Positions 45,227-48,200 of a stretch of DNA of 64,000 nt are shown here, in pieces; positions within the stretch are counted from its first letter, which is position 1, and every line of letters starts with the position of its first letter. Position numbers: made by a program. Where the stretch lies: NCBI RefSeq assembly GCF_046105845.1, contig NZ_CP151004.1; one strand, given 5' to 3'. Origin of the DNA: Escherichia coli (GTDB lineage: Bacteria; Pseudomonadota; Gammaproteobacteria; Enterobacterales; Enterobacteriaceae).

Positions 45227-48200
45227 ATCACCGACCAAATTCGAAAAGCCTGCTCAACGAGCAGGCTTTTTTGCATCTGCAGCTCATGAGGATGAGAACC
45301 TCCGGGGGCAGGGAGGTTCGACTCGAGCGAAGCGAGAGAACGTTGCGTCAGCAACGGCCCGCAGGGCGAGCCACGAAGTGGCGAGTAATCCTCTATCACC
45401 GACCAAATTCGAAAAGCCTGCTCAGCGAGCAGGCTTTTTTGCATTTGTAGCCTATGAGGATGAGAACCTCCGGGGGCAGGAAGGTTCGACTCGACGTAGG
45501 CCTGATAAGACGCGCCAGCGTCGCTTCAGGCAACGGCACCGCACTTATTGTCGGATGCGGCGCGACCGCCTTATTCGACCTATACACCATACATTTCCCT
45601 GCCAAATTTGCGCCCCATATCTCACTATCCATTAACGGATTTGTGACAGAAACCATTGCCTTTTTTTATATTTGCTTAAATCTTTTTTTGCGTTACTTAT
45701 GGCTGGCGCTGGCATTTTCCGCTGTGCGTTTTAGCGTTCATGGTATTAATCGCTCAGATATCCACCTTTTCCTCAGATTTTTTTCACTAAATGCATAAAA
45801 CTTAATCACCAATTGTTGCTAAATATTAAGCTGATTGTTCTGGTCATGTTGGAGTAGCACAAATTTCTCTGCTGCAAATAGCTGTTTGAAGTTTTTTTAA
45901 TCTTTGTTTGTGGATTCTCACCGTTGGTGTAAATCCCGGTTGGCTGTATTGACGTTTTCACATTCTGTTGACAGATTGTAGGTCACGAGGGGCATTTTAT
46001 GGAGGATCCGCACTGTTACACTGATGTTAATTAGTACGGCATCCCCACCTCATACGTTGACCCGACCGGGCAAAAAACAAAAAAGGTCAGGCAGCGACAA
46101 CCCACTGCAAAGGGTTAAAACAACAAACATCACAATTGGAGCAGAATAATGCGTATTTCCTTGAAAAAGTCAGGGATGCTGAAGCTTGGTCTCAGCCTGG
46201 TGGCTATGACCGTCGCAGCAAGTGTTCAGGCTAAAACTCTGGTTTATTGCTCAGAAGGATCTCCGGAAGGGTTTAACCCGCAGTTGTTTACCTCCGGTAC
46301 TACCTATGACGCCTCTTCCGTGCCGCTTTATAACCGCCTGGTTGAATTTAAAATCGGCACCACCGAAGTAATCCCGGGCCTCGCTGAAAAGTGGGAAGTC
46401 AGCGAAGACGGTAAAACCTATACCTTCCATCTGCGTAAAGGTGTGAAGTGGCACGACAACAAAGAATTCAAACCGACGCGCGAACTGAACGCCGACGACG
46501 TGGTGTTCTCGTTCGATCGTCAGAAAAACGCGCAAAACCCGTACCATAAAGTTTCTGGCGGCAGCTACGAATACTTTGAAGGCATGGGCTTGCCGGAGCT
46601 GATCAGCGAAGTGAAAAAGGTGGACGACAACACTGTTCAGTTTGTGCTGACTCGACCGGAAGCGCCGTTCCTCGCTGACCTGGCAATGGACTTCGCCTCT
46701 ATTCTGTCAAAAGAATATGCTGACGCGATGATGAAAGCCGGTACACCGGAAAAACTGGACCTCAACCCAATCGGCACCGGTCCGTTCCAGTTACAGCAGT
46801 ACCAAAAAGATTCCCGTATCCGCTACAAAGCGTTTGATGGCTACTGGGGCACCAAACCGCAGATCGATACGCTGGTTTTCTCTATTACCCCTGATGCTTC
46901 CGTGCGTTACGCGAAATTGCAGAAGAATGAATGCCAGGTGATGCCGTACCCGAACCCGGCAGATATCGCTCGCATGAAGCAGGATAAATCCATCAATCTG
47001 ATGGAAATGCCGGGGCTTAACGTCGGCTATCTTTCATATAACGTGCAGAAAAAACCACTTGATGACGTGAAAGTTCGCCAGGCTCTGACCTACGCGGTGA
47101 ACAAAGACGCTATCATCAAAGCGGTTTATCAGGGCGCGGGCGTGGCAGCGAAAAACCTGATCCCGCCAACCATGTGGGGCTATAACGACGACGTTCAGGA
47201 CTACACCTACGATCCCGAAAAAGCGAAAGCCTTGCTGAAAGAAGCGGGCCTGGAAAAAGGCTTCTCCATCGACCTGTGGGCAATGCCGGTACAACGTCCG
47301 TATAACCCGAATGCTCGCCGCATGGCAGAGATGATTCAGGCAGACTGGGCGAAAGTGGGCGTGCAGGCCAAAATTGTCACTTACGAATGGGGTGAGTATC
47401 TCAAGCGTGCGAAAGATGGCGAGCATCAGACGGTAATGATGGGCTGGACTGGCGACAACGGGGATCCGGATAACTTCTTCGCCACCCTGTTCAGCTGCGC
47501 CGCCTCTGAACAAGGCTCCAACTACTCAAAATGGTGCTACAAACCGTTTGAAGATCTGATTCAACCGGCGCGTGCTACCGACGACCATAACAAACGCGTT
47601 GAACTGTACAAGCAAGCGCAGGTGGTGATGCACGATCAGGCTCCGGCACTGATCATCGCTCACTCCACCGTGTTTGAACCGGTACGCAAAGAAGTTAAAG
47701 GCTATGTGGTTGATCCATTAGGCAAACATCACTTCGAAAACGTCTCTATCGAATAATTAAAAGCCATACCCGGTGGCGCTGTGCCTCTGCGTGCAGCGCC
47801 ATCCGGCAGCAATACTTCATTCCCTGCCCGACCTGGGCGGGAATTGATTTGTGAGCAATACAGACACGCAGTTCCAGGCTGCGGGTCACTACAGAGAATC
47901 CGGGTTATGTTGCAGTTTATTCTCCGACGTTTGGGACTCGTCATCCCCACGTTTATCGGTATTACCCTTCTCACATTTGCCTTTGTCCACATGATCCCGG
48001 GCGATCCGGTGATGATCATGGCGGGCGAACGTGGGATCTCCCCAGAGCGTCACGCGCAGCTGCTGGCTGAACTCGGCTTAGATAAACCGATGTGGCAGCA
48101 GTATCTCCATTACATTTGGGGCGTAATGCACGGCGATTTAGGCATTTCAATGAAAAGCCGCATCCCGGTTTGGGAAGAGTTCGTGCCGCGCTTTCAGGCC

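What the first reader, a model, noticed from the sequence alone, without database searches (positions are those of the whole stretch)
47757..47906. REP-like palindrome inside the dpp operon between dppA and dppB
Seen in sequence: a 150-bp spacer between dppA and dppB contains ccggtggcgctg..cagcgccatccgg. Established knowledge: intra-operon REP hairpins, as in malE-malF, protect upstream mRNA from 3' exonucleases and produce excess binding protein over permease. Inference: the same differential-expression mechanism is plausible here.
Basis: partly seen in the sequence, partly recalled or inferred. Interest (0 to 1): 0.18.

Follow-up and report, generated by a model that had tools for sequence, protein, structure and literature searches.

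The report
REP-derived hairpin ending dppA mRNA
The palindrome between the E. coli genes dppA and dppB is real: it is a single-copy leftover of an old pair of REP repeats, and published RNA 3'-end mapping puts the end of the dppA message at its foot, so it is an ordinary example of a known way to make more binding protein than permease.

Summary
Window 47757-47906 is the 150-bp dppA-dppB spacer of an E. coli chromosome. Bases 47770-47806 form a 15-bp stem with one bulged U and a hexaloop (-27.3 kcal/mol, z -3.5).

It is not a present-day REP. There is one copy per genome, against at least 40 for a canonical REP control, and no GTAG/CTAC tag. It is REP-derived, though. At the orthologous site other Enterobacteriaceae carry canonical GTAG-tagged REPs or head-to-head REP doublets. 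The E. coli arms align with the outer arms of that doublet, and the central CTAC...GTAG part is missing.

K-12 and at least 57% of E. coli genomes also carry a 157-bp canonical BIME just 5' of the hairpin. This window lacks it.

Published Term-seq on MG1655 (Adams 2021) lists a dominant RNA 3' end at 3705889(-) three times across its three growth-condition sheets. That position equals window 47808, 2 nt past the stem, with no U tract. A Rho-termination region lies about 220 nt downstream, inside dppB.

The rest of the spacer also looks functional. It holds a terminator-like hairpin 2 and a deeply conserved dppB leader with a covarying hairpin and an invariant motif complementary to RyhB.

Verdict: known mechanism, low interest.

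The parts
46149..47756 (+). dppA CDS (periplasmic dipeptide-binding protein), the upstream gene
   Evidence: ORF list. A 100% identical stretch is annotated dppA in E. coli strain 7/2.
47770..47806 (+). Hairpin 1, the reported palindrome: 15-bp stem, bulged U at 47802, loop 47785-47790. A single-copy relic of a REP doublet.
   Evidence: structure and significance. against control (copy number). (alignment to REP doublets of other genera).
47808..47808 (+). Position equivalent to the dominant Term-seq RNA 3' end of MG1655 (3705889, minus strand), 2 nt 3' of hairpin 1
   Evidence: Adams 2021 Supplementary file 1. Coordinates mapped.
47768..47769 (.). Junction where K-12 and at least 57% of E. 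coli genomes carry a 157-bp canonical BIME (REP, IHF-site-like linker, inverted REP). It is absent from this window. ATAC is repeated at both ends of the insert.
   Evidence: Alignment A1. The left junction of the long allele is found in 3114 of 5426 genomes.
47807..47834 (+). C-rich, G-poor stretch just 3' of hairpin 1 (12 C, 3 G in 28 nt). It is rut-like, but it overlaps the 5' arm of hairpin 2.
47820..47853 (+). Hairpin 2 (UUCCC-U-GCCC / GGGC-GGGAA, loop GACCU) followed by UUGAUUUGUG: a weak intrinsic-terminator-like site
   Evidence: Terminator scan. Fold of -16.4 kcal/mol, z = -3.97. A stem-loop lies at this position in most of the 77 distinct Enterobacteriaceae spacers, but its sequence and origin vary.
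47847..47865 (+). Near-invariant single-stranded motif ATTTGTGAGCAATACAGAC. TGTGAGCAAT (47850-47859) is the exact complement of RyhB nt 41-50.
   Evidence: Invariant columns in alignments A2 and A4. RyhB sequence read from MG1655. The statistics are weak.
47863..47887 (+). Hairpin 3 in the dppB leader, a conserved RNA structure with covariation
   Evidence: Fold. All 33 distinct orthologues tested fold to the same hairpin with z < -2. 8 of 11 pairs change on both sides, 88% of cells are paired against 27-50% when slid, and 0 of 500 shuffles reach the score.
47893..47909 (+). Conserved AGAGAAUCCGGGUU plus the ATG: Shine-Dalgarno-like region and start codon of dppB
   Evidence: Invariant in alignments A2 to A4.
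47907..48926 (+). dppB CDS (permease), the downstream gene. Position 48030 equals the MG1655 'Rho termination region' 3705667.
   Evidence: Adams 2021 Supplementary file 2: Rho score 2.06, p = 3.6e-5. Mapped.

Best explanation
Hairpin 1 (47770-47806) is a fossil of a head-to-head REP doublet. An internal deletion removed both GTAG/CTAC heads and fused the two distal arms into one long, very stable stem-loop in the dppA 3' untranslated region.

The proposed mechanism has four steps.
1. RNA polymerase transcribes through the hairpin.
2. Many transcripts then end or are cut further downstream. Candidates are Rho in the untranslated spacer or early dppB, the weak terminator-like hairpin 2, or endonucleolytic cleavage.
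3. 3'-to-5' exonucleases trim back and stall at the foot of hairpin 1.
4. This leaves a discrete, protected monocistronic dppA mRNA ending at about 47808.

The result would be more dppA message, and so more binding protein, than dppBCDF message.

Shown: the structure, its REP ancestry, its single-copy status, and a dominant 3' end at its foot in K-12. Inferred: that trimming rather than termination makes that end, that the hairpin lengthens dppA mRNA life, and the size of its effect on protein ratios.
For: - Structure: a stable hairpin, -27.3 kcal/mol, z = -3.5, with no U tract after it.
- 3' end: Term-seq of MG1655 lists a dominant 3' end at 3705889(-) three times across its three growth-condition sheets. 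This maps to window 47808, 2 nt past the stem. The hairpin and its 3' flank are identical in K-12 and the window.
- No other 3' end is listed in the rest of the spacer (coordinates 37058xx-37060xx).
- Rho: a Rho-termination region (score 2.06) lies about 220 nt downstream, in dppB. A C-rich, G-poor stretch follows the hairpin.
- Precedent: Dar & Sorek 2018 found that Rho-dependent transcripts end immediately after stable stem-loops without U tracts, which protect against PNPase and RNase II. The REP325 preprint shows an intra-operon REP acting as both stabiliser and partly Rho-dependent attenuator.
- Conservation: the hairpin is present in 5421 of 5426 complete E. coli genomes. Most of the Enterobacteriaceae spacers examined have some strong stem-loop between dppA and the conserved dppB leader, of interchangeable origin.
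Against: - The 3'-end data are from K-12, which has an extra BIME upstream. No data exist for a short-allele strain like this window.
- Term-seq gives steady-state ends and cannot separate termination from trimming.
- No half-life or deletion data exist for this hairpin.
- The REP preprint reports that REPs do not uniformly lengthen mRNA half-lives.
- Hairpin 2 lies downstream and should stall exonucleases first, so its apparent lack of a dominant 3' end needs explaining. It is weaker: -15.7 kcal/mol in K-12.
- Genera such as Raoultella and some Klebsiella do without any hairpin-1 equivalent, with spacers of 106-108 nt.
Confidence: 0.65

Rival explanations
1. Hairpin 1 is itself the site where transcription stops. 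It would act as a non-canonical, possibly Rho- or NusG-assisted attenuator or pause hairpin, so the 47808 end is a primary termination product rather than a trimmed one. Differential expression would then come from termination, not mRNA protection.
For: - The 3' end lies 2 nt from the stem.
- REP325 is reported to be a partly Rho-dependent terminator as well as a stabiliser.
- A Rho-sensitive region exists nearby.
- A C-rich tract flanks the hairpin.
Against: - No U tract follows the stem.
- The terminator scan did not flag hairpin 1.
- Dar & Sorek attribute such ends to trimming.
- This is not exclusive of the main explanation.
Confidence: 0.15
2. Hairpin 1 is a neutral relic. Hairpin 2 (a leaky intrinsic terminator) and the conserved dppB leader do the real work, through translation control and Rho polarity. 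The 3' end at hairpin 1 would be a by-product of decay with no effect on DppA output.
For: - Hairpin 2 matches the terminator consensus.
- A hairpin at that position is found in most Enterobacteriaceae examined, whereas a hairpin-1 equivalent is missing in several genera with spacers of 106-113 nt.
- The dppB leader is far better conserved than hairpin 1.
- REPs do not uniformly change half-lives.
Against: - No 3' end is listed at the hairpin 2 tail in MG1655 in the curated table, whereas the hairpin 1 end is among the curated dominant ends in all three entries.
- In Escherichia sp. E1V33 hairpin 2 is truncated to about 3 bp while hairpin 1 is kept.
- Hairpin 1 is about 10 kcal/mol more stable than hairpin 2.
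Confidence: 0.15
3. The palindrome acts at the DNA level as REP/BIME elements have been proposed to do, for example as a gyrase, Pol I or nucleoid-protein binding site or a cruciform. Alternatively it is a target or scar of REP/BIME mobility with no RNA role.
For: - The palindrome descends from REPs.
- A BIME presence/absence polymorphism sits exactly at its 5' edge.
Against: - It has lost the GTAG motif that E. coli TnpA-REP needs for recognition (abstract; sequence).
- It is single copy.
- The REP325 study found no chromosome-compaction role for its model REP.
- An RNA 3' end maps at its foot.
Confidence: 0.05

Closest known systems
Intercistronic REPs of malE-malF (E. coli) and hisJ-hisQ (Salmonella), the classical mRNA-stabilising REPs (Newbury/Higgins 1987 and Stern 1988, cited from memory)
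   Same: Same operon logic: a periplasmic binding-protein gene comes first, then permease genes, with a GC-rich palindrome in the spacer. The upstream message ends at the hairpin, and a 3'-to-5' exonuclease block is proposed.
   Different: Those are canonical, multi-copy, GTAG-tagged REPs. This hairpin is single copy, lacks GTAG, and has a longer stem (15 bp). Stabilisation has not been measured for dpp.
[quoted passage not shown]
   Same: A stable stem-loop with no U tract. The steady-state 3' end lies immediately downstream. A C-rich sequence follows, and a Rho-sensitive region lies downstream.
   Different: Here the hairpin is inside an operon rather than at its end. Rho dependence of this particular end was not tested.
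REP325 in yjdM-yjdN: dual stabiliser and partly Rho-dependent attenuator (bioRxiv 10.64898/2026.03.23.713779)
   Same: A palindromic element between tandem genes that biases expression toward the upstream gene.
   Different: REP325 is a cluster of canonical REPs. This is one degenerate, fused hairpin.
The canonical BIME (REP, IHF-site-like linker, inverted REP) in the dppA-dppB spacer of E. coli K-12. I recall it being noted when the dpp operon was sequenced (Abouhamad & Manson 1994). This is from memory and the paper was not available to me.
   Same: Same spacer, directly adjacent to hairpin 1. It is present in at least 57% of E. coli genomes.
   Different: It is absent from this window. The mapped K-12 3' end lies at hairpin 1, downstream of the BIME, not at the BIME's own REPs.
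REPINs, meaning REP doublets forming hairpins (Bertels & Rainey 2011, from memory), and GTAG-tagged REP families (PMC3733652, PMC2817692)
   Same: Orthologous sites in Trabulsiella, Leclercia, Lelliottia, Pluralibacter and others carry head-to-head REP doublets whose outer arms align with the E. coli arms.
   Different: The E. coli element has lost the central roughly 27 alignment columns, including both CTAC/GTAG heads. It can no longer be a TnpA-REP substrate as defined in PMC8266576.

Membership tests
REP (GTAG-tagged repetitive extragenic palindrome of E. coli) | High copy number (more than 100 copies per genome; PMC2817692, PMC3733652) | tested here: not met
   A 54-nt query around hairpin 1 finds a median of 1 place per genome in 5421 genomes. 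There is one match in the 64-kb window.
REP (GTAG-tagged repetitive extragenic palindrome of E. coli) | Conserved GTAG (or CTAC) tetranucleotide next to the stem, needed for TnpA-REP recognition (PMC3733652; PMC8266576 abstract) | tested here: not met
   The flanks are ATAC on the 5' side and CAGC on the 3' side. Canonical REPs in the same window (8597-8631, 8667-8701, 45496-45532) do carry GTAG/CTAC.
REP (GTAG-tagged repetitive extragenic palindrome of E. coli) | Imperfect GC-rich palindrome of 20-40 nt interrupted by a bulge | tested here: met
   A 37-nt element with a 15-bp stem and one bulged U.
REP (GTAG-tagged repetitive extragenic palindrome of E. coli) | Sequence homology to canonical REPs | tested here: met
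   Alignment A2. The 3' arm GCAGCGCCATCCGGC is identical to the 3' arm of the Citrobacter GTAG-tagged REP at the orthologous site. Both arms align with the outer arms of the REP doublets of six other genera.
REP (GTAG-tagged repetitive extragenic palindrome of E. coli) | Binding and cleavage by the cognate TnpA-REP (RAYT) | not testable with these tools
   This needs a biochemical assay. It is expected to be negative given the loss of GTAG.
BIME / RIP element | Two or more REPs in alternating orientation separated by a conserved linker (with an IHF site in RIPs) | tested here: not met
   The window has none in this spacer. K-12 has one as a 157-bp insert 5' of hairpin 1.
3'-exonuclease-protective stem-loop (functional class, Dar & Sorek 2018) | Stable stem-loop not followed by a U tract, with a precise steady-state RNA 3' end immediately downstream | tested here: met
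   The energy is -27.3 kcal/mol. The MG1655 Term-seq end at 3705889 equals window 47808, 2 nt past the stem, and is listed three times across the three condition sheets. This rests on published data for K-12, not for this strain.
3'-exonuclease-protective stem-loop (functional class, Dar & Sorek 2018) | Transcripts terminated by Rho downstream, with a rut site just after the structure | tested here: inconclusive
   A Rho-termination region lies at 3705667 (window 48030), score 2.06. The stretch 47807-47834 has 12 C and 3 G. No Rho score is given for the 3705889 end itself.
3'-exonuclease-protective stem-loop (functional class, Dar & Sorek 2018) | The 3' end or upstream mRNA stability depends on the stem and on PNPase/RNase II | not testable with these tools
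   This needs mutants and half-life measurements.
Intrinsic (Rho-independent) terminator | GC-rich stem followed directly by a U tract, with the 3' end inside the tract | tested here: not met
   Hairpin 1 is followed by CAGCAAUACUUC and was not flagged. Hairpin 2 (47823-47841 plus AATTGATTTG) was flagged as terminator-like, but no 3' end is listed there in MG1655.

The most novel reading that the evidence does not exclude
The 150-bp spacer is a composite post-transcriptional switch rather than just a REP hairpin.
- A fossilised REP doublet has been fixed as the 3' end of dppA mRNA.
- Downstream lies an unannotated, deeply conserved dppB leader made of the invariant motif UUGUGAGCAAUAC, a covarying hairpin, and an invariant ribosome-binding region.
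- The single-stranded motif of that leader is a pairing site for the iron-starvation sRNA RyhB. This would let the cell regulate the DppBCDF permease separately from DppA. DppBCDF also imports haem (Letoffe 2006, from memory).

The leader has no Rfam family. Its hairpin covaries. TGTGAGCAAT is the exact complement of RyhB nt 41-50. dppBCDF, but not dppA, was listed among new RyhB-repressed operons (Beauchene 2015). However, the pairing statistics are weak.
Probability: 0.2. Interest if true: 0.5.

Novelty: new member of a known kind. Interest (0 to 1): 0.2.

Why it matters
It gives a concrete, experimentally anchored example of how the first gene of an ABC-transporter operon, the binding protein, can be over-expressed relative to the permease genes. 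It also shows that a hairpin can keep this job after losing everything that made it a mobile REP (copy number and the GTAG tag). The adjacent BIME presence/absence polymorphism, roughly 57% against 43% of E. coli genomes, offers a natural experiment on whether REP content of a 3' UTR tunes expression between strains. None of this changes current understanding. The mechanism has been textbook since malE-malF.

Tried and rejected
- Rfam: no family matches the spacer at gathering thresholds or at E up to 10.
- Internal promoter: the sigma-70 scan found none in the spacer. My manual reading of TTGTGA/TTGATT as a -35 box found no matching -10 box.
- CRP site at TGTGAGCAATACAGAC: the right half-site does not fit. 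Rejected by inspection.
- GcvB pairing to CAAUACAGAC: only about 7 bp, using a GcvB sequence recalled from memory. Dropped.
- RyhB duplex energetics: RNAduplex on full-length RNAs is meaningless. On short segments the site ranks 384 of 7108 windows, and 47 of 2000 shuffles do as well. Perfect 10-mers to the RyhB core occur 3 times in the window against 3.3 expected. I keep RyhB only as a lead.
- Counting the short allele with a junction query failed, because the tool joins pieces across the 157-bp insert. Only the long-allele count is usable, and it is a lower bound.
- RNAalifold on a MAFFT alignment of all leaders misaligned the variable stem and recovered only 5 pairs. I replaced it with an ungapped 64-nt subset.
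- The long-range pairing of CCAUACCCGG with CCGGGUUAUG in the whole-spacer fold was not pursued. The 5' partner is not conserved outside Escherichia.
- Supplements of Dar & Sorek 2018, Melamed 2016, Beauchene 2015, Conway 2014 and the 3'-UTR valves paper are not held. Thomason 2015 is not held at all. I therefore found no second 3'-end dataset, TSS data or RIL-seq check.
- Literature searches for a direct description of dppA-dppB transcripts found nothing relevant.
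Full report
**1. Observation**

The window is an E. coli chromosome segment. It is 100% identical across the region to strain 7/2 and to an ST69 strain, and it reads eptB, tRNA-Pro, RtT, dppA, dppB, dppC, dppD, dppF on the + strand.

The quoted inverted repeat is present. As RNA it forms a 15-bp stem (47770-47784 with 47791-47801 and 47803-47806) with a bulged U at 47802 and a hexaloop. Its energy is -27.3 kcal/mol, z = -3.46, and none of 200 shuffles folds as well. The pattern occurs once in the window and never in shuffles.

**2. Is it a REP?**

Published work defines REPs as 20-40-nt imperfect palindromes present in high copy number. They are tagged at one end by GTAG, and the E. 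coli TnpA-REP needs the bulged stem preceded by a conserved motif (PMC2817692, PMC3733652 and PMC8266576).

Hairpin 1 fails two of these features.
- Copy number: a 54-nt query finds one place per genome (median 1, maximum 2) in 5421 of 5426 complete E. coli genomes.
- Tag: the flanks are ATAC and CAGC, not GTAG/CTAC. The genuine REPs elsewhere in the window do carry the tag.

It is therefore not a member of the present-day REP family.

**3. It is REP-derived**

I fetched 80 dppA loci from across the Enterobacteriaceae and extracted every dppA-dppB spacer.

At the orthologous position the following are found:
- Citrobacter and Pseudocitrobacter carry a canonical GTAG-tagged REP, GTAGGCCGGATAAGCGCAGCGCCATCCGGC.
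- Salmonella carries a degenerate copy.
- Trabulsiella, Leclercia, Pseudenterobacter, Superficieibacter, Lelliottia and Pluralibacter carry a head-to-head REP doublet: CCGGGTGGCGCTACGCTTGCACTGGCCTAC ... GTAGGCCGGGTAAGCGTAGCGCCACCCGGCAGCAGTGCTTTAT.

In alignment A2 the E. coli arms and their 3' flank (GCAGCAATACTT) align with the outer arms and flank of that doublet. About 27 central columns, including both CTAC and GTAG heads, are missing from E. coli.

The simplest reading is that an ancestral REP doublet lost its centre. The two distal arms are mutually complementary because the REPs were inverted copies, so they fused into one long hairpin. "REP-like" is therefore correct by descent.

**4. 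Polymorphism**

K-12 MG1655 has a 307-bp spacer. The extra 157 bp sit between window 47768 and 47769, immediately 5' of hairpin 1. They form a textbook BIME (REP, linker, inverted REP) flanked by a repeated ATAC.

The long-allele junction is found in 3114 of 5426 genomes, which is a lower bound. E. albertii also has the long allele, and Escherichia sp. E1V33 has the short one. The window carries the short allele, so hairpin 1 is the only REP-related structure in its spacer.

**5. Experimental evidence**

Adams et al. 2021 (eLife, PMC7815308) mapped RNA 3' ends of MG1655 by Term-seq.
- Supplementary file 1 lists a dominant "orphan" 3' end at 3705889(-), with average read counts of 46,345 and 209,104 in the two entries I could read.
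- The coordinate occurs three times in a file that has one sheet per growth condition (LB at OD 0.4, LB at OD 2.0, M63 at OD 0.4).
- The printed flank is ...CAGCGCCATCCGGC-A-GCAATACTTC.
- Using known terminators in the same table (for example sgrS), I checked that position 51 of the printed 61-mer is the 3' end. I then mapped the coordinate to window 47808, 2 nt after the last paired base.
- No other 3' end is listed in the rest of the spacer (coordinates 37058xx-37060xx), so none appears at the hairpin 2 tail.
- Supplementary file 2 lists a Rho-termination region at 3705667(-), Rho score 2.06 and p = 3.6e-5. This equals window 48030, inside dppB.

Dar & Sorek 2018 showed that Rho-dependent transcripts end precisely after stable stem-loops lacking U tracts. 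These stem-loops protect against PNPase and RNase II, and rut sites lie just downstream. The 28 nt after hairpin 1 hold 12 C and 3 G.

A 2026 preprint shows that an intra-operon REP (REP325) both stabilises the upstream message and attenuates read-through in a partly Rho-dependent way.

**6. Mechanism**

The best-supported model has three steps.
1. Transcription passes hairpin 1.
2. A fraction of transcripts is ended or cut downstream, by Rho in the spacer or early dppB, by leaky hairpin 2, or by an endonuclease.
3. Exonucleases trim back to hairpin 1, leaving a protected dppA message.

Shown: the structure, its ancestry and the 3' end. Inferred: trimming rather than termination, any gain in half-life, and the effect on the DppA:DppBCDF ratio.

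The rivals are that hairpin 1 is itself an attenuator, that hairpin 2 and the leader do the real work and hairpin 1 is a relic, and that the palindrome has a DNA-level role. The first two are not exclusive of the main model.

**7. The rest of the spacer**

Across the Enterobacteriaceae loci examined the spacer has a common plan.
- A variable palindromic module. It may be REPs, REP doublets or CCCTCTCCC/GGGAGAGGG-type elements, and it is absent in spacers of 106-113 nt such as those of Raoultella and Klebsiella michiganensis.
- A GC-rich hairpin whose origin is interchangeable. In E. coli this is hairpin 2 at 47820-47843, which is terminator-like. In Pseudescherichia the REP itself takes this place.
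- A near-invariant motif, ATTTGTGAGCAATACAGAC (47847-47865).
- Hairpin 3 (47863-47887).
- An invariant AGAGAATCCGGGTT followed by the dppB ATG.

Hairpin 3 is a genuinely conserved RNA structure. Thirty-three distinct orthologues fold to the same hairpin with z < -2. On an ungapped alignment of 28 sequences, 8 of 11 pairs show changes on both sides, 88% of cells are paired against 27-50% when the partner is slid, and 0 of 500 shuffles reach the covariation score. Atlantibacter and Dryocola replace the whole stem with a different sequence, and one Buttiauxella carries a large insertion (about 125 nt) in the loop while keeping the stem. No Rfam family covers this leader.

**8. A lead, not a finding**

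TGTGAGCAAT (47850-47859) is the exact complement of RyhB nt 41-50. Beauchene et al. 2015 list dppBCDF, not dppABCDF, among new RyhB-repressed operons.

The statistics are weak. Ten-mers complementary to the RyhB core occur at the chance rate in the window, and the duplex energy is unexceptional. I rate this lead at about 0.2.

**9. Verdict**

The element fails membership of the REP family as it exists today but descends from it and appears to work like the classical intercistronic REPs. The mechanism is well known, so the finding is a new member of a known kind with low interest (0.2).

The more novel items are the collapse of a REP doublet into a fixed 3'-UTR hairpin and the unannotated, covarying dppB leader.

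Noticed in passing
window 47768/47769 (K-12 NC_000913.3 about 3705931-3706087): A 157-bp canonical BIME (REP, linker, inverted REP) is present or absent at this exact junction. It is absent here and present in K-12, E. albertii and at least 3114 of 5426 complete E. coli genomes. ATAC is repeated at both ends, which is compatible with deletion by microhomology or with insertion.
   Followed up: partly
window 47847-47906: The dppB 5' leader is conserved across the 80 Enterobacteriaceae loci fetched. It consists of the near-invariant motif ATTTGTGAGCAATACAGAC, a hairpin (47863-47887) with strong covariation (8 of 11 pairs change on both sides), and an invariant AGAGAATCCGGGTT before the ATG. No Rfam family covers it.
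   Followed up: partly
window 47850-47859: TGTGAGCAAT is the perfect complement of RyhB nt 41-50 (AUUGCUCACA). Beauchene 2015 lists dppBCDF, without dppA, as RyhB-repressed. The statistical support is weak: the match is at the chance rate for 10-mers and the duplex energy ranks 384 of 7108 windows.
   Followed up: partly
L066:4109-4441 (Buttiauxella agrestis) and L060, L077, L081: In L066 a large insertion (about 125 nt, resembling an ERIC element by my recollection, not tested) sits inside the hairpin 3 loop while the stem is kept. In Atlantibacter and Dryocola the whole stem sequence is replaced (AATCCTG.../...CGGGAGATT) but the hairpin is retained.
   Followed up: no
L003:4109-4249 (Escherichia sp. 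E1V33): Hairpin 2 is truncated to about 3 bp, while hairpin 1 is kept with a C-to-U change that preserves pairing as G-U. This hints at redundancy between the two hairpins.
   Followed up: no
window about 46054 (MG1655 3707800, minus strand): Adams 2021 Term-seq lists a very abundant 3' end 95 nt upstream of the dppA start codon, in the 5' UTR (read counts 804,330 and 3,491,085). This suggests premature termination or a stable leader fragment.
   Followed up: no
window 48030 and 48325 (MG1655 3705667 and 3705372): Published data show a Rho-termination region early in dppB and an internal 3' end in dppB at LB OD 2.0. Both are consistent with polarity within the operon.
   Followed up: no
window 45272-45405 (+), 45499-45580 (-), 8597-8701: There is an RtT RNA hit just downstream of tRNA-Pro and a REP cluster matching naRNA4 between proK/RtT and dppA. 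A canonical BIME at 8597-8701 overlaps the ES036 hit.
   Followed up: no
window 27425-27576, 27859-28287, 53496-53561, 53979-54044: Rfam gathering-level hits elsewhere in the window: the sok antitoxin RNA, the cspA thermoregulator, and two rdlD antitoxin RNAs.
   Followed up: no
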